64,000 bases of DNA from Octopus sinensis (Eukaryota): assembly GCF_006345805.1 (NCBI RefSeq), contig NC_043017.1, positions 11,346,001-11,410,000 of the forward strand, given 5' to 3'. Position numbers: made by a program. Of the stretch, positions 1 to 63,000 are shown piece after piece (position 1 is the stretch's first letter; each line of letters begins with the position of its first letter).

Positions 1-3000
1 TTTTTCCCTCTCAGTCCTTTCTGCTGAAGAGCATAGGCTCAAAACATCAAAGACATTTCCGTTTTTCCCAAACACCAAACTAATACACCTGCTTGTTGTT
101 CCCTCGCCACTCTTCATCTTTTGTTTTCTCTAAATTTAAACTATATACATGTGTGTGTGTGTGTGTGTATATATATTTATACAAACCTCAATATGAATGT
201 AATTTCTCTTCCAGAAAAATGTTCTGTAGTTTCCATACCCAATGGCATCATTACATCAAACAGTTCCTCGACCGAACCAATCTCACACAAGACCTACATT
301 TACATAAAATGTTCGCCGGGTTTTCTTTTAGATGGAACAAGTTCTCTGTTTTGTAACTTTGGTAAATGGTCCTCAGAAATACCTTCCTGTGTTCCAAGTA
401 AGTTGTCCATGTTTTTGTTTCATTTCTAAAAATTAATGTCTTTATTTCTAAAAGAAAAAGAAAAAACAGAAATTTTTTTACACATAGGAGGAGCGGCTGT
501 GTGGTAAGTAGCTTGTTTTACCAACCACATGGTTTCGGGTTCAGTCCCACTGCGTGGCATCTTGGGCAAGTGTCTTCTACTATAGCCTCAGGCCGACCAA
601 AGCCTTGTGAGTGGATTTGATAGACGGAAACTGAAAGAAGCCCGTCGTATATGTGTGTATATATATATATGCCTGTGTGTGTTTGTGTGTGTCCCCCTAG
701 CATTGCTTGACAACCGATGCTGGTGTGTTTACGTCCCCGTTACTTAGCGGTTCGGCAAAAGAGACCGATAGAATAAGTACTGGGCTTACAAAATAATAAG
801 TCCCGGGGTCGAGTTGCTCGATTAAAGGCAGTGCTCCAGCATGGCCGCAGTCAAATGACTGAAACAAGTAAAAGAGTAAAAGAGAATATGTGTGTGTGTC
901 AGTATGTGTGTGTGTGTGTGTGCGAAAATTTTTCATGGCTATAATTCTAAGTTTCCACCATATAAGTCTAATACTGGGGCATATCAACCCATGGAAAAGA
1001 AACGGATATTAATACACATGGAACTGGCCCCATGCCTATTGTTTTTGCGATAAATATGCCACTGATCTATGAGGTCATCAGTTTCATTTCTGGCAGCACA
1101 CTGTGTCATCATCATTGTCATCATCATCATCATTTAAATGTTCATGTCCTTTGCTAGCATGGGTTTGACGATGACAACGATGATGATGATGATGATAACA
1201 ATGACACTAATAATGATGATGGCGACAACAATGATGACGACAATGATCATGATGATGACAATAATAATGATGATGATGACGACGATGAAAATGATGACTG
1301 GCGACGATGACGATAATAATGATGATGATAATGACGATGATGACAATAATGAAAATGATGACAGTGGCGACAACGATGGCGATGACGATAATAATGATGG
1401 TGATAATGATGATGACGACGATGATGAAAATGATGACAGTGGCGATGACGATGACGATAATAATGATGGTGATAGTGATGATGACGACGACGATGATGAC
1501 AACTGATGATATCCATTTCATAAGGAAGTCCTCTCTTTTGAATTACACTCCAACGCTCTCGTGATGACCATTATGGTTCTAAGTGATCTCATTAGAGACT
1601 CTGACCACGGCAGACTTACAGCAACGCTTGACCATTCATCTCAATGAGCTCCTTCTGACTCTAATTAATAGGAAAAAAAATTGTTTATTTACTTATCTAT
1701 TTATTTTGCTTTTCATTGACGAATATTTGGAGCATTCATTAAGTGGTTAAGCATAAGTGTTGGATATTGAGTGACAACTTGAGCAGTGTGCTGGGGCATG
1801 AGGTGCTTCTTATCTGGTTAATCTGATGTGTGTGTGTGTGTATATATATATATATATATATATATATATATATATATATATATATATTATATATATATAT
1901 ATATATATATACACACACACATGCACATCCATGCATATGCACACATACGTATGAGTACACGTGTATATGTATATATATATATATATACGCACATATATAT
2001 GCGTATATATATACTCCCCCCCCACACATATGTATATCAGATTATATAGATAAAATCAGCATGTGCCAAGACAAGTGTACTTCTGTATCTGTGGTTTACA
2101 CACAAACACACACACACATACACACACATATATATATAAATATATATATAGGTATGTATGTATGTATATATATATATATATATATGTATGTATATATATA
2201 TGTATGTATATATGTATGTATATATATACACATATATATATATATATATATACATACATATATACATATATATACATAAATGTATACATATGTATATACA
2301 TGTATATACATACATACATACCTACATATATATATATATATATATATATATACATCATCATCGATAATGATGATGATGATATACAATGTATGTATATGTG
2401 TGTGTGTGTGTATATACACACACACACACATAAAAAGTGTCGTCTGCCTGATCTCCTATTGCAATATGATACGTCTCTTGCCTTGTGTTCATTCTATACA
2501 TTTTAATTAAAGACCGTTTAATGAGCTACAACTTAGCTGAAAAGTTTTAATAATACATAGAACAAGCAAAATGTTTAAAGGTATTAAGCCATGGTCTCAC
2601 TTTCTCTCTCTCTCTCTCTCTCTCTCCCTCTCTCTCTCTCTCTTTTCCTCTCTCTCTCTGTTCTGTGTTCAAATCATAACAGTTTTAACAAAATTATTAA
2701 CAGTGGTATCTTGGGCAAGTGTCTTCTGCTATAGCCCCGGGCCGACCAATGCCTTGTGAGTGGATTTGGTAGACGGAAACTGAAAGAAGCCTGTCGTATA
2801 TATGTATATATATATATATATGTATGTGTGTTTGTGTGACTGTGTTTGTCCCCCTAGCATTGCTTGACAACCGAGGCTGGTGTGTTTACATCCCCGTCAC
2901 TTACCGGTTCGGCAAAAGAGACCGATAGAATAAGTACTGGGCTTACAAAGAATAAGTCCCGGGGTCGATTTGCTCGACTAAAGGCGGTGCTCCAGCATGG

Positions 3001-60000: not shown

Positions 60001-63000
60001 TTCAGTATGCGGCAAAGTAATTTATTTTACTAAGCCCTTTTATATAATATATATTATATATATATATATATACAATACATATATATACATATATATATAT
60101 ATATATATATATATATATATATATATATATATACATATACATATATATACATATATATATATATATATATAATATATATATATATATATATATATATATA
60201 TATATATATACATATACATATATATATACGGCATGATAGATCGTTAGCTCCTACACGCATTTTTCTCTCCTTGTTTCTTTTCTGTGTATCTTTCTGTCAA
60301 AGAGCATAGGCTCGAAACGTAAAAGACTTGTTCTATTTCTATTCCTGAGCGCTATACTAATACATTTGTTTGTTTGTACTCCACCTGCCTTCGTCTTTTG
60401 TTTATTTTCGTAAACCTTCCCGTTATATATATGTATATATATATATATTATATATATATATATATATATATATAATATATATACGTGTATATATATATGT
60501 GTATATATATATATATATATATGTATATGTATATGTATATACATATGTATATAATATATATTATATATATTATATATATATATATATATATTATATATAT
60601 ATATATATATATATATAATATATATACGTGTATATATATGTGTATATATATATATAATATATATATATATATGTATATATATATATATATATATATATAT
60701 ATTATATATATATATATATATATATATATATATATATATATATATATAATATATATATATATACATACATATATATGTGTGTGTGTGTACATATATATAT
60801 ATATATCATGTTTGTTATTCTGTGCCTTGGAATATTTTGCAGGGCCTTGTGTACTGCCAGAATTCAAAGAGACAAGCTACAGATTCCTGAACGACGAGCC
60901 AGTGGTAAACTTCACCATTCCAAGTGGTACCTACATCCATGTGATCTGTGAGAAGCCCCATCTCATACCCACAGTAGTGCTTTGTCACTACGGTAAATGG
61001 GTGCTGCCAGTGCGTTCCTGTTTTGACGGTTAGTTCATGTCGGTGCCAGTGTTACCATTCCAGAGCTGGTTGCTGATGTTGCTGTTGTTGTTGTTGTTGT
61101 TGTTGTTGTTATAGCTGTTGCAGTTATTGTAGACATTGATGATGATGATGATGATGATGATGAAGATGATGATGAGGGTAATGATAATGACAACAACAAT
61201 GATGATAATGATGAGGGTGGTTGTGATGAAGATGATGATGGGAAGGTGGTGATGGTCATGACGATGGCCGTGGTGGTGGTGGTGGTGGTGGTGGTGGTAG
61301 TAGTAGTGGTAGTGGTGGTGATGGTATTGGTGGTCTCAGTGGTGATGGTGGGGGGTGACGATTGTGGTGATGATGATTATGGTGTTGTTGGCAGTGATGA
61401 CGACGACAATGACGATGATGATGGATAATGGTGATGGCAATGATGGTGATGGCAATGATGGTGATGGCAATGATGGTGATGCTGGTAGTAGTGATGGTTG
61501 TGTCCTTGTCTCCTCCCTTGTTAATAAAGCAGTCATGCATCACTTAGAGACTTTGACGACAGAAACAGTTTCTTATTTGTATTACAGGCATTGGTGACTT
61601 TGATGGGCTGCCGGGTATGTCAGTGGGTGTGTGTGTGCTGTAGGGTAGTTGTGCCTGTATGTGTGTGTGAATGTATATATGCACACACACTCATATATGT
61701 ATATTTATTATATATATGCATATGTAAGTATATATATATGTATATATATAATATAGAGAGAGAGAGAGAAGGGGGGCAAGAGAGAGCGTGAAAGATATAT
61801 AAGTATATGGCTATGTACGCCTGTATGAGTATATTTATATATATACACGTATATTATATATGATATACATTGTATGTATATATATACATATATAATATAT
61901 ATATATAGAGAGAGAGAGAGAGAGAAAGAGAGAGAGAGAGTGAGAGAGAGAGGGACAGGAGAGAGAGTGATAGATATATAAGTATTTGGATATGTATGCA
62001 TGTATGTATATTTATATATATATACACATATATTATATATATATAATATACATTGTATGTGTATTTATATATATATATATATATATATATATATCCATGT
62101 ACACTTACGTGTGCATATGGATACATACACATGAATATATATTTATGTGTGTGTGTGTATACATACACATATATACAGGTTATGTAGATTATCACGCCAA
62201 TTTAACACACACACACACACACACACACATACACATACACATACACAATCAGCTCCTATCTTAGAGTTTAAACACTACTTCTTGTCCATGGATTAAAGAA
62301 ACACTACAAAACAAAAAAAAAACCATCATCGTAAACAAAAATATATAAAAGTAAGCATCAATAGTGCATAAACAAACAAACAAATAAATAAGTAAATAAA
62401 TAAACACATTGCATGTTGTATTAGAAGGACTCGTTTCTATTTTTGAAGCAAGAAGGAGTTTAAATAAATAAATAAATATAGAAACAAAAATATCGCTAAG
62501 TAAATAAAAATGAAGGAGGAGGTTTCAGAATCTTGAGGATTCTAAGTGGGAGGGCATGGTGTTATGGATTGTCAAGCACAAAAAGCCCTATTGTTGTTAT
62601 TGCTGTTGTTGTTGTTGTTGTTGTTGTGGTGGTGGTGGTGGTGGTGCATTTTCATTTTTTGAATAATTCTCTGTAGATAGAATTTGAAATGTGGATGTTG
62701 TGGGTGGGTGCTTGACATGTGGGGTGAGGCAATGAGGGGGGGTGTCATGTGTGTTGTGGGTTGCATGCATGCATATATATGTATATGTATGTGTATTGGT
62801 ATGTGAGTGTGCATGTGTGTATGTATACATATGTGTATGTATATATATATATATATATATATAATATATATAATATATATATATAATATATATAATATAT
62901 ATATATATTATATAATATATAGAATATATATAATAATATAGATAATATATATATATAATAATATAATAATATATATTATAATATATATATATATATATAT

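What the first reader, a model, noticed from the sequence alone, without database searches (positions are those of the whole stretch)
215..61028. Module signature (His eight residues before Cys2; C-x-F/Y-G-x-W) suggests LEV-9/Hasp-type synaptic scaffolds as an alternative to a complement role
Seen: His lies exactly 8 residues before the second Cys in 12 of 19 modules (9 before in A3). C3-x-[FY]-G-x-W occurs in 10 modules, plus CKYGEF in B2. Established: C. elegans LEV-9 and Drosophila Hig/Hasp are secreted multi-CCP proteins that cluster nicotinic acetylcholine receptors, and octopus has lineage-expanded acetylcholine-receptor-like chemotactile receptors. Inference, from recalled family sequences and unverified: the His and F/Y-G-x-W signature fits LEV-9/Hasp better than factor H. 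A duplicated, diverged scaffold for expanded cephalopod Cys-loop receptors would be an undescribed system.
Basis: inference. Interest (0 to 1): 0.7.

Follow-up and report, generated by a model that had tools for sequence, protein, structure and literature searches.

The report
Octopus WAP-less Hasp/Hig-like CCP genes
The window holds two neighbouring octopus genes for secreted chains of CCP (sushi) modules whose unusual His/short-loop module signature is real and matches the central modules of a WAP-plus-17-CCP protein family built like the synaptic scaffolds Hasp and LEV-9, although both octopus genes lack the WAP domain and their function is untested.

Summary
There are 19 one-exon CCP modules. 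His lies 8 residues before Cys2 in 12 of 19, and C3-x-[FY]-G-x-W occurs in 10 of 19.

The modules belong to two same-strand genes.
- Gene A is a leader plus 13 CCPs, ending at a stop at 31178. It matches public model P0001.
- Gene B has at least 9 CCPs plus a C-terminal Ig. Seven of its CCPs are in the window, and its 5' end is unknown.

The signature is not private to these genes. His is the third commonest residue at that position in about 2300 other CCP modules, and it goes with a C3-Trp loop one residue shorter than usual.

An unnamed family among gene B's relatives has WAP, then 8 CCPs, a basic linker, 5 CCPs, an Ig and 4 CCPs. Only its central modules CCP6-13 carry the signature, and CCP7 carries both features in 8 of 8 members. 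That layout equals the published Hasp and LEV-9 layouts, but no tool gave a name.

Gene B shares the family's CCP13-Ig junction. Gene A is an array of CCP7/CCP10-type modules. Neither gene has a WAP, and gene A's modules score about as well on factor H modules.

Any link to receptors remains speculation.

The parts
215..397 (+). Gene A exon for CCP module A1, the second CCP of the protein. The leader and first CCP lie upstream of the window.
   Evidence: Splice sites. It matches P0001 residues 94-155. It has His(-8) and CNFGKW.
3993..4187 (+). Gene A exon, module A2
   Evidence: It has His(-8) and CQFGKW.
7880..8071 (+). Gene A exon, module A3
   Evidence: It has His at -9, not -8, and reads CSKGVW.
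9287..9478 (+). Gene A exon, module A4
   Evidence: It has His(-8) and CSYGHW.
11842..12051 (+). Gene A exon, module A5, which carries a fifth Cys
   Evidence: It has His(-8) and CKFGNW. The extra Cys is kept in P0002 and P0017.
13793..13987 (+). Gene A exon, module A6
   Evidence: It has His(-8) and CYYGEW.
15730..15939 (+). Gene A exon, module A7
   Evidence: It has His(-8) and CVSGKW.
17602..17802 (+). Gene A exon, module A8
   Evidence: It has His(-8) and CLYGNW. It scores 50 bits on the family CCP10 model.
20580..20765 (+). Gene A exon, module A9, which carries a fifth Cys right after the Trp
   Evidence: It has His(-8) and CSQGFW. The extra Cys is kept in P0002 and P0017.
24395..24589 (+). 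Gene A exon, module A10
   Evidence: It has His(-8) and CLFGKW.
27803..28003 (+). Gene A exon, module A11
   Evidence: It has neither feature (Ala at -8, CDMAKW).
30988..31178 (+). Gene A last coding exon: divergent module A12 with the long C3-Trp loop, then C-D-C-G-S and a stop codon
   Evidence: One search shows the stop 15 nt after Cys4. P0001 ends ...PTCDCGS. The same ending occurs in P0002 and P0017. Its best family module is CCP15.
31179..46302 (.). Repeat-rich spacer between genes A and B. It holds no WAP-like or CCP exon. Gene B's missing 5' exon(s) may lie here.
   Evidence: WAP patterns and the WAP-like model find nothing. Repeats are listed. A weak RVT_1 match lies at 41.4-42.6 kb. 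The only leader-like candidate, 36922-37030, is weak.
46303..46479 (+). Gene B exon, module B1. Its good acceptor implies an upstream exon.
   Evidence: Public models P0003 and P0004 start at a Met inside this module.
49606..49803 (+). Gene B exon, module B2
   Evidence: It has His(-8) and CKYGEF. It scores 43 bits on family CCP10. It has no PDB match better than 13.5 bits.
51896..52087 (+). Gene B exon, module B3
   Evidence: Its best family module is CCP9, at 33 bits.
54244..54435 (+). Gene B exon, module B4
   Evidence: It reads CTYGKW. Its best family module is CCP10, at 43 bits.
56145..56381 (+). Gene B exon, module B5, a long module of 75 residues from Cys1 to Cys4
   Evidence: It has His(-8) and CLNGKW.
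58289..58483 (+). Gene B exon, module B6
   Evidence: It has His(-8) and CQYGKW.
60843..61028 (+). Gene B exon, module B7. A donor GTTAGT follows. Modules B8, B9 and the Ig domain lie beyond the window.
   Evidence: P0003 residues beyond 447 have no match in the window. It reads CHYGKW.

Best explanation
The window holds two adjacent, same-strand genes for extracellular bead-on-a-string CCP proteins.

- Gene A encodes a hydrophobic leader followed directly by 13 CCP modules and a Cys-rich C-terminal tip. Twelve of its modules are in the window.
- Gene B encodes at least 9 CCP modules followed by a C-terminal Ig domain. Seven of its modules are in the window, and its 5' end is not defined.

The His/short-loop signature marks a CCP subtype. 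In this subtype the usually aromatic residue before the conserved Gly upstream of Cys2 is His, and the Cys3-Trp loop is one residue shorter than usual. Within a WAP-CCP1-8-linker-CCP9-13-Ig-CCP14-17 family, whose layout is that published for Hasp and LEV-9, only the central modules CCP6-13 are of this subtype.

I read both octopus genes as WAP-less, cephalopod-lineage derivatives of that superfamily.
- Gene B keeps the CCP9-13 + Ig part, with internal duplications.
- Gene A is an array built almost entirely of CCP7/CCP10-type modules.

Inferred mechanism: both are secreted, multivalent matrix proteins that bind and hold cell-surface or matrix partners through several CCP faces, as Hasp, Hig and LEV-9 do. 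The partners are unknown.

Shown here: the gene structures, the signature, the family architecture and the module-level similarities. Inferred: that the unnamed family is Hasp/LEV-9, that the proteins are secreted, and any scaffold function.
For: Gene structures:
- One module per phase 1-1 exon.
- Public model P0001 covers A1-A12 at 93-100% identity per aligned segment, the mismatches falling where segments run past exon ends, and adds a leader and one CCP upstream.
- P0003 and P0004 give B1-B9 plus an Ig that passes Pfam's cut-off: ig 23.4 and 26.2 bits against 21.8.
- Orthologues of gene A have the same 13-module layout and the same C-D-C-G ending: P0002 from Argonauta and P0017, which is 45% identical.

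The signature marks a subtype:
- His(-8) goes with the short loop: 219 of 290 His modules have it, against 400 of 2009 others (odds ratio 12.4).
- 38 of 47 background modules with C-x-[FY]-G-x-W also have His(-8).

The WAP family:
- Pfam WAP is above its cut-off in P0046, P0085 and P0144, and just below it in P0065, P0045, P0048 and P0055.
- A local model finds an N-terminal WAP-like domain in 14 of the 163 proteins held at that point, which include the 149 top hits other than the query's own P0003.
- The 8-member alignment has 78 conserved Cys columns: 8 for WAP, 17 x 4 for CCPs and 2 for Ig.
- The signature is confined to CCP6-13 and is invariant in CCP7.

Links to the octopus genes:
- hhalign of the B family against the WAP family gives E 3.1e-40 over 666 columns. 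The A family gives E 2.8e-63 over 782 columns.
- B9 scores 55 bits on CCP13. B3 is best on CCP9. B2 and B4 are best on CCP10. All of A0-A11 (12 of 12) are best on CCP10 or CCP7.
- The 19-module profile scores 57.7, 52.1 and 42.6 bits on the modules P0073:124-185 (aligned to the family's CCP10), P0115:13-76 (position in the family not determined) and P0048:656-719. No single-module PDB chain exceeds 38.7 bits.
- The Atlas neighbours of gene B are 'Hikaru genki family' clusters at 0.98 and 0.97, and a mollusc cluster with WAP in 35% of members at 0.91.

Published layouts were read as passages in PMC9083331 and PMC7180231.
Against:
- The review describes no Ig in Hasp.
- The WAP family was found through a search with gene B, so it is a sample chosen by likeness to the query.
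- No WAP is present in P0001-P0004 or in the window.
- Gene A shows no module-by-module register with the family or with gene B.
- In single-sequence scoring the WAP family is best for 16 of 22 modules, but by small margins. It loses for A1, A9, A12, B1, B3 and B6.
- Module A2 scores 24.2 bits on factor H module 15 alone. Module A8 scores 34.1 bits on a three-module factor H chain. Their best scores on the WAP family are 26.7 and 29.3 bits.
- The Atlas neighbours of gene A are chordate DAF, factor H-like and beta-2-glycoprotein clusters at 0.95.
- His-type CCP arrays without WAP also exist among the hits: P0033 has 10 of 10 and P0018 has 26 of 28.
- Gene B lacks the four CCPs that follow the Ig in the family and in leafhopper Hig.
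- There are no expression or binding data.
Confidence: 0.5

Rival explanations
1. Gene A, and perhaps gene B, is a humoral regulator or recognition protein of a complement or thioester-protein system. On this reading it is a soluble CCP-only chain working like factor H, C4BP or beta-2-glycoprotein I.
For: - Gene A has the factor H type of architecture: a leader plus CCPs only.
- The best solved-structure matches of the module profile are CR1, factor H, CR2 and factor XIII B.
- Modules A2 and A8 score on factor H modules about as well as on the WAP family.
- The Atlas neighbours of P0001 are DAF and factor H-like clusters.
- NCBI's automatic name for the Argonauta gene B protein is 'complement factor H-like'.
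- Insect Hig proteins are themselves reported to bind viral proteins through their CCPs (PMC7180231, passages read). Immune and neural roles need not exclude each other.
Against: - His(-8) occurs in 0 of 12 printed CR1 and factor H modules. The short loop occurs in 1 of 12.
- The signature is rare in 'factor H-like' and 'CR2-like' named proteins.
- The module profile scores higher on CCP10-type modules than on any single-module PDB chain.
- Module B2 has no PDB match better than 13.5 bits.
- The five-motif test for regulatory CCPs (PMC6683126) could not be run.
Confidence: 0.2
2. Both genes are lineage-specific extracellular matrix or adhesion proteins. They reuse the His-type CCP module but have no functional tie to Hasp, Hig or LEV-9, or to Cys-loop receptors.
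For: - His-type modules have been amplified independently in other unnamed proteins that lack WAP. P0033 and P0018 have only Sushi as a credible domain match, and P0049 adds F5/8 type C and chitin-binding domains.
- Gene A lacks WAP, Ig and collinearity with the family.
- Gene B lacks the CCPs that follow the Ig.
- The closest hits to gene B are a mixed set. Of 70 hits of 1000 residues or fewer, 67 have Sushi, 10 have HRM, 3 have Ig_3 and 1 has a kinase domain.
Against: - The B9-CCP13-Ig junction is specific: 55 bits against 25 for the next module.
- The hhalign match with the family is long.
- The Atlas neighbours of gene B are Hig clusters.
Confidence: 0.25
3. The signature is a chance or compositional pattern without meaning.
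For: None beyond the fact that the 19 modules are paralogues and therefore not independent.
Against: - Binomial P is 1.9e-13 against composition and 3.3e-7 against the CCP background.
- His(-8) is conserved module by module in orthologues down to 45% identity.
- His(-8) is invariant in CCP6 and CCP7 of the WAP family.
Confidence: 0.02

Closest known systems
Hasp (Drosophila Hig-anchoring scaffold protein) and LEV-9 (C. elegans)
   Same: - All are chains of tandem CCP modules.
- The octopus modules are of the His/short-loop subtype. That subtype fills CCP6-13 of a WAP + 17 CCP family whose layout equals the published one: Hasp is WAP + up to 17 CCPs, and LEV-9 is WAP + 8 CCPs (PMC9083331).
- The family has a basic linker after CCP8, with runs of Arg and Lys seen in fragments P0073, P0132 and P0134. 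This fits the reported proteolytic processing.
   Different: - No WAP is present in gene A or anywhere in the window.
- Gene A has none of the canonical CCP1-5 type modules and no register with the family.
- The identity of the unnamed family with Hasp/LEV-9 rests on architecture only.
- The review states that the WAP domain is dispensable for LEV-9 clustering, so its absence does not exclude a similar action.
Hig (Hikaru genki, Drosophila and other insects)
   Same: - Gene B combines CCPs with one Ig domain.
- Its nearest Atlas clusters are named Hikaru genki family, at 0.98 and 0.97.
- B9 followed by the Ig corresponds to the CCP13-Ig junction of the WAP family.
   Different: - Leafhopper Hig is laid out as CCP, then Ig, then four CCPs (PMC7180231).
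- Gene B has nine CCPs before the Ig and none after it.
- No Hig sequence could be obtained for alignment.
Regulators of complement activation (factor H, CR1, DAF, C4BP) and beta-2-glycoprotein I
   Same: - Gene A is a soluble CCP-only chain.
- These are the best matches among solved structures and the Atlas neighbours of P0001.
   Different: - The signature is nearly absent from the printed factor H and CR1 modules.
- Whether the octopus proteins carry the regulators' motif pattern is untested.
SVEP1 (polydom), the name NCBI's pipeline gives P0001-P0003
   Same: Both contain CCP modules.
   Different: Pfam finds no von Willebrand A, EGF or pentraxin domain. Only Sushi is found, plus Ig in gene B. 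The name comes from a best database hit and does not describe the protein.

Membership tests
LEV-9/Hasp type (WAP + CCP scaffold) | N-terminal WAP four-disulfide-core domain | tested here: not met
   - Pfam finds only Sushi in P0001 and P0002. It finds no WAP in P0003 or P0004 at E<=0.1.
- Only about five residues lie between the P0001 leader and the first Cys of the first CCP.
- Three WAP patterns and a WAP-like model built from four family members find nothing in six frames of the window. The best hit is 8 bits at E 0.21.
- Gene B's 5' end is unknown, so a WAP exon outside the window cannot be excluded for B.
LEV-9/Hasp type (WAP + CCP scaffold) | Run of 8-17 tandem CCP modules | tested here: met
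   Gene A has 13 CCPs. Gene B has at least 9.
LEV-9/Hasp type (WAP + CCP scaffold) | Secreted, with a signal peptide and no membrane anchor | tested here: inconclusive
   P0001, P0002 and P0017 begin with a hydrophobic leader, judged by eye because no predictor was run. The gene B models begin inside module B1 without a leader.
LEV-9/Hasp type (WAP + CCP scaffold) | Central modules of the His(-8)/short C3-Trp subtype. This feature was derived here from the unnamed WAP-17CCP-Ig family, not from named Hasp or LEV-9. | tested here: met
   In the family, CCP6 and CCP7 have His in 8 of 8 members, and CCP7 has C-x-[FY]-G-x-W in 8 of 8. In the window the counts are 12 of 19 and 10 of 19.
LEV-9/Hasp type (WAP + CCP scaffold) | Module-by-module collinearity with the family | tested here: inconclusive
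   - Gene B is partly collinear. B9 is best on CCP13 at 55 bits, B3 on CCP9, B4 on CCP10, and its Ig follows B9.
- Gene A is not. All 12 of A0-A11 are best on CCP7 or CCP10.
LEV-9/Hasp type (WAP + CCP scaffold) | Localises to cholinergic synapses and clusters acetylcholine receptors | not testable with these tools
   This needs expression, localisation and binding experiments.
Hig (Hikaru genki) | One Ig-like domain together with CCP modules | tested here: met
   Pfam ig scores 23.4 bits in P0003 and 26.2 bits in P0004, against a cut-off of 21.8. The Ig exon lies outside the window.
Hig (Hikaru genki) | Domain order CCP, then Ig, then four CCPs | tested here: not met
   P0003 and P0004 end just after the Ig. 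The order in leafhopper Hig comes from PMC7180231.
Regulators of complement activation | Protein made only of tandem CCPs | tested here: met
   This holds for gene A.
Regulators of complement activation | Ordered five-motif pattern M5-M3-M1-M2-M4 over three CCPs (PMC6683126) | not tested
   The motif matrices are in figures and supplements that were not available. Only sections 6 and 8 of the paper were read.
Regulators of complement activation | Binds C3b or C4b, with decay-accelerating or cofactor activity | not testable with these tools
   This needs a biochemical assay.
SVEP1/polydom | von Willebrand A, EGF and pentraxin domains beside the CCPs | tested here: not met
   Pfam finds none of them in P0001-P0004.

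The most novel reading that the evidence does not exclude
Genes A and B are a cephalopod-specific, WAP-less pair descended from the Hasp/Hig/LEV-9 scaffold superfamily. On this reading the CCP-only chain (A) and the CCP + Ig protein (B) act together in the extracellular matrix, as Hasp and Hig do. They would capture and cluster Cys-loop receptors, either neuronal nicotinic receptors or the expanded chemotactile receptors of the suckers.
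Probability: 0.13. Interest if true: 0.75.

Novelty: new variant of a known kind. Interest (0 to 1): 0.5.

Why it matters
- If the unnamed WAP-17CCP-Ig family is Hasp/LEV-9, the signature becomes a practical marker. It separates the scaffold-type central CCP modules from canonical and complement-type modules in any genome.
- The octopus locus would then show two new shapes of that superfamily, conserved across cephalopods. One is an array of 13 central-type modules. The other is a CCP9-13 + Ig remnant.
- That gives cephalopod neurobiology two concrete candidate matrix organisers to test by expression and binding.
- It also corrects misleading automatic names (SVEP1, factor H-like).
- If the family identity fails, these are two more uncharacterised sushi-repeat genes.

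Tried and rejected
- **Direct head-to-head with named sequences.** Profiles from named LEV-9, Hasp and Hig against factor H, CR1 and C4BP could not be built. No tool supplied named LEV-9, Hasp or Hig sequences, and sequences from solved structures are not stored proteins. Word-indexed searches reached only cephalopod orthologues or gave no names.
- **WAP patterns on the hits.** Two of the WAP patterns, run on the 163 proteins held, missed the family's variant WAP. All three patterns were run on the window. The WAP was found only by Pfam and then by a local model.
- **Whole-array duplication of A and B.** This was rejected. No register stands out. A modules resemble each other (44-55 bits) and outside proteins (41-55 bits) more than they resemble B modules (27-39 bits). 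A11 and A12 are weaker.
- **A leader exon for gene B.** Only one weak candidate was found, at 36922-37030.
- **Other genes in the window.** Ten long ORFs on both strands gave nothing real. The TMEM154 match at 57162-57536 (-) is a poly-Asn/poly-Ile low-complexity artefact. No tRNA genes were found.
- **Literature.**
  - No paper in the library holds both 'Hikaru genki' and 'octopus'.
  - A looser search listed only general cephalopod papers.
  - 'Octopus' with 'pentraxin domain-containing protein 1' gave two bivalve papers.
  - The Aplysia immunome paper had nothing on these genes.
  - Octopus chemotactile receptors were seen only in a search listing and abstracts.
- **Tools deliberately not used.** Structure prediction, fold search and complex prediction would not separate the rival readings, and I do not claim that A binds B.
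- **Left unchecked.**
  - Supplements are closed. The motif matrices of PMC6683126 and the Hig alignments of PMC7180231 may bear on the complement and Hig tests.
  - Whether the hasp and hig genes are neighbours in the fly genome stayed unchecked, because the paper was not held.

Full report
**What is in the window.** A profile built from the window's own modules finds 19 CCP modules, all on the + strand. Each sits in its own exon. An acceptor AG lies 5 nt before the Cys1 codon and a donor GT lies 7 nt after the Cys4 codon, which makes symmetric phase 1-1 exons. Pfam Sushi matches 17 of 19 at E<=1. The window was searched exon by exon.

**Two genes.** An exon-wise profile search returned four public gene models.
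- P0001 (878 aa, NCBI name 'SVEP1 isoform X1') covers A1-A12 at 93-100% identity per aligned segment; the mismatches fall where segments run past exon ends. It adds, upstream of the window, a hydrophobic leader and one more CCP. It ends C-D-C-G-S-stop in the A12 exon, with the stop at 31176-31178.
- P0002 is the Argonauta hians orthologue of gene A, with the same length and layout.
- P0003 (709 aa, from an Octopus record that differs slightly from the window) and P0004 (Argonauta, 'complement factor H-like') give gene B. They hold B1-B7, two further CCPs and a C-terminal Ig domain. The Ig passes Pfam's cut-off at 23.4 and 26.2 bits against 21.8.

Modules B8, B9 and the Ig are not in the window. 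Both gene B models start at a Met inside B1, yet B1 has a good acceptor, so the 5' end of gene B is unknown. P0002 and P0004 are listed with the same longest-contig length (28,680,461 bases), which fits one Argonauta contig. P0017, an unnamed protein 45% identical to P0001, has the same leader + 13 CCP + C-D-C-G layout. Gene A's design is therefore old within its lineage. That P0017 is from another cephalopod is my inference.

**The observation.**
- His lies exactly 8 residues before Cys2 in 12 of 19 modules. A3 has it at -9.
- C3-x-[FY]-G-x-W occurs in 10 of 19 modules, and B2 reads CKYGEF.
- This is far above composition (P = 1.9e-13) and above the CCP background (P = 3.3e-7 and 1.0e-12). 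The modules are paralogues, so these are not independent trials.
- His(-8) is conserved module by module in P0002 and P0017. The [FY] is conserved only in some modules, for example A4, A5, A6 and A8.

**What the signature is.** I parsed about 2300 CCP modules from the non-cephalopod proteins returned by the searches. This sample is biased towards relatives of the queries.
- The residue at Cys2-8 is Tyr in 20%, Phe in 18% and His in 13% of modules. His is thus a common variant at a usually aromatic position, next to the conserved Gly at -7.
- His(-8) goes with a Cys3-Trp loop one residue shorter than the usual C-x-x-x-G-x-W. The short loop occurs in 219 of 290 His modules and in 400 of 2009 others (odds ratio 12.4).
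- [FY] at C3+2 is rare: 47 of 2298 modules, 38 of which also have His.
- 16 of 153 proteins have His in at least half of their modules, and 75 of 153 have none.
- In the CR1 and factor H alignments printed, 0 of 12 modules with the position visible have His(-8). One has the short loop.
- Proteins automatically named 'factor H-like' (P0008) and 'CR2-like' (P0010) have His(-8) in 1 of 14 and 0 of 10 modules.

**The WAP family.** A full HMMER search with the gene B profile gave 593 hits at E<=1e-3. Among the 150 listed, one family stands out.
- Pfam WAP is above its cut-off in P0046, P0085 and P0144. It is just below in P0065, P0045, P0048 and P0055.
- A local model of four WAP segments finds an N-terminal WAP-like domain in 14 proteins at E<=1e-10.
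- Ig passes Pfam's cut-off in P0028 and P0152.
- An alignment of eight members has 78 conserved Cys columns: 8 for WAP, 17 x 4 for CCPs and 2 for Ig. The order is WAP, CCP1-8, a basic linker, CCP9-13, Ig, CCP14-17.
- A review states that Hasp is one WAP followed by up to 17 CCPs, that LEV-9 is one WAP and 8 CCPs, that both are processed, and that LEV-9's WAP is dispensable (PMC9083331, passages read).
- The numbers match. No tool named these proteins, and the review mentions no Ig in Hasp. The identity is an inference that I rate at about 0.75.
- Within the family, CCP1-5 and CCP14-17 are canonical. CCP6-13 have the short loop. His(-8) is present in 8 of 8 members in CCP6 and CCP7. C-x-[FY]-G-x-W is present in 8 of 8 members in CCP7 only.
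- The fragments P0073, P0132, P0134, P0136 and P0155 are the linker-CCP9... part of the same or a sister family.

**How the octopus genes relate to the family.**
- Profile-profile alignment with the family gives E 3.1e-40 over 666 columns for gene B, and E 2.8e-63 over 782 columns for gene A. Repeat proteins align in many registers, so I also scored each octopus module on 17 module-specific models.
- Gene B: B9 scores 55 bits on CCP13 against 25 for the next best module, so the CCP-Ig junction is shared. B3 is best on CCP9, B2 and B4 on CCP10, and B6 on CCP11. This suggests CCP9-13 + Ig with internal duplications and no CCPs after the Ig.
- Gene A: all 12 of A0-A11 are best on CCP10 or CCP7 (22-50 bits), with no diagonal. 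A12 is best on CCP15. Gene A therefore looks like an amplified array of the central module type.
- A and B align with each other (E 1.1e-31). No register is preferred, and their modules are not each other's closest relatives. They are not a recent tandem duplicate.

**Results that cut the other way.**
- No WAP is present in P0001-P0004. None is found anywhere in six frames of the window by three patterns or by the WAP-like model.
- In single-sequence scoring the WAP family is best for 16 of 22 modules, often narrowly.
- A2 scores 24.2 bits on factor H module 15. A8 scores 34.1 bits on a three-module factor H chain. Their best scores on the WAP family are 26.7 and 29.3 bits. B2, in contrast, has no PDB match above 13.5 bits.
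- The 19-module profile does score higher on the modules P0073:124-185 (CCP10-type), P0115:13-76 and P0048:656-719 (57.7, 52.1 and 42.6 bits) than on any single-module PDB chain, where the best is 38.7 bits.
- The Atlas places P0001 nearest chordate DAF and factor H-like clusters at 0.95. It places P0003 nearest 'Hikaru genki family' clusters at 0.98 and 0.97. That tool gives no alignment, so these are leads only.
- Leafhopper Hig is laid out as CCP, Ig, then four CCPs (PMC7180231). Gene B lacks the last four.

**Verdict.**
The signature does point away from factor H-type modules and towards the central modules of a Hasp/LEV-9-shaped family, and gene B is a partial relative of that family.
- Both genes lack WAP, gene A is an unordered array, the family's name is inferred, and nothing links these proteins to acetylcholine-type or chemotactile receptors.
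- My best reading, at confidence 0.5, is that these are WAP-less cephalopod derivatives of that scaffold superfamily acting as secreted multivalent matrix proteins.
- A complement-type humoral role (0.2) and an unrelated matrix role (0.25) remain open.

**Surroundings.** The 15-kb spacer between the genes is repeat-rich and holds a decayed reverse-transcriptase remnant. No other gene was found on either strand.

Noticed in passing
window 11842-12051 (A5), 20580-20765 (A9), 30988-31178 (A12): Gene A has three odd cysteines beyond the four per module. One is in the first loop of A5, one follows the Trp of A9, and one is in the C-D-C-G tip after A12. All three are kept in P0002 and P0017. They could form inter-module or inter-chain disulfides, which would mean oligomerisation.
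   Followed up: partly
window 46303-46479 and 31179-46302: Public models of gene B in two species start at a Met inside module B1 and lack a leader, although B1 has a good acceptor. The real first exon(s) are unannotated. The only leader-like candidate, 36922-37030, is weak.
   Followed up: partly
window 38658-41161 and 35930-38676: There are two copies of a unit of about 1.23 kb that are 87-99% alike, and two to three copies of a unit of about 1.08-1.3 kb. Both lie in the spacer between the genes.
   Followed up: no
window 41367-42635 (+): Broken ORFs give weak RVT_1 matches (E 0.006 and 0.01, below the Pfam cut-off). This is probably a decayed retroelement.
   Followed up: partly
window 31541-31789 and 41949-42196: Two copies of a short interspersed-repeat-like element, 77-89% alike, end in a GAT/ATT trinucleotide run. 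Inverted copies lie at 31580-31683 against 39755-39858 and 40985-41088.
   Followed up: no
window 34616-35300: A very AT-rich simple-repeat block has GC 0.21 over 34-36 kb. TA/CA microsatellites are scattered through the introns. They produce long spurious ORFs and a false TMEM154 match at 57162-57536 (-).
   Followed up: yes
proteins P0033, P0018 (not in the window): Two unnamed proteins are near-perfect tandem arrays of His-type CCP modules without WAP, with His(-8) in 10 of 10 and 26 of 28 modules. The His-type module has therefore been amplified more than once.
   Followed up: partly
proteins P0028, P0045, P0060, P0048, P0085 (not in the window): In the WAP-17CCP-Ig family, the part CCP13-Ig-CCP14-17 has the layout reported for Hig, and WAP-CCP1-8 has that of LEV-9. 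Hasp, Hig and LEV-9 may be pieces or paralogues of one ancestral design.
   Followed up: partly
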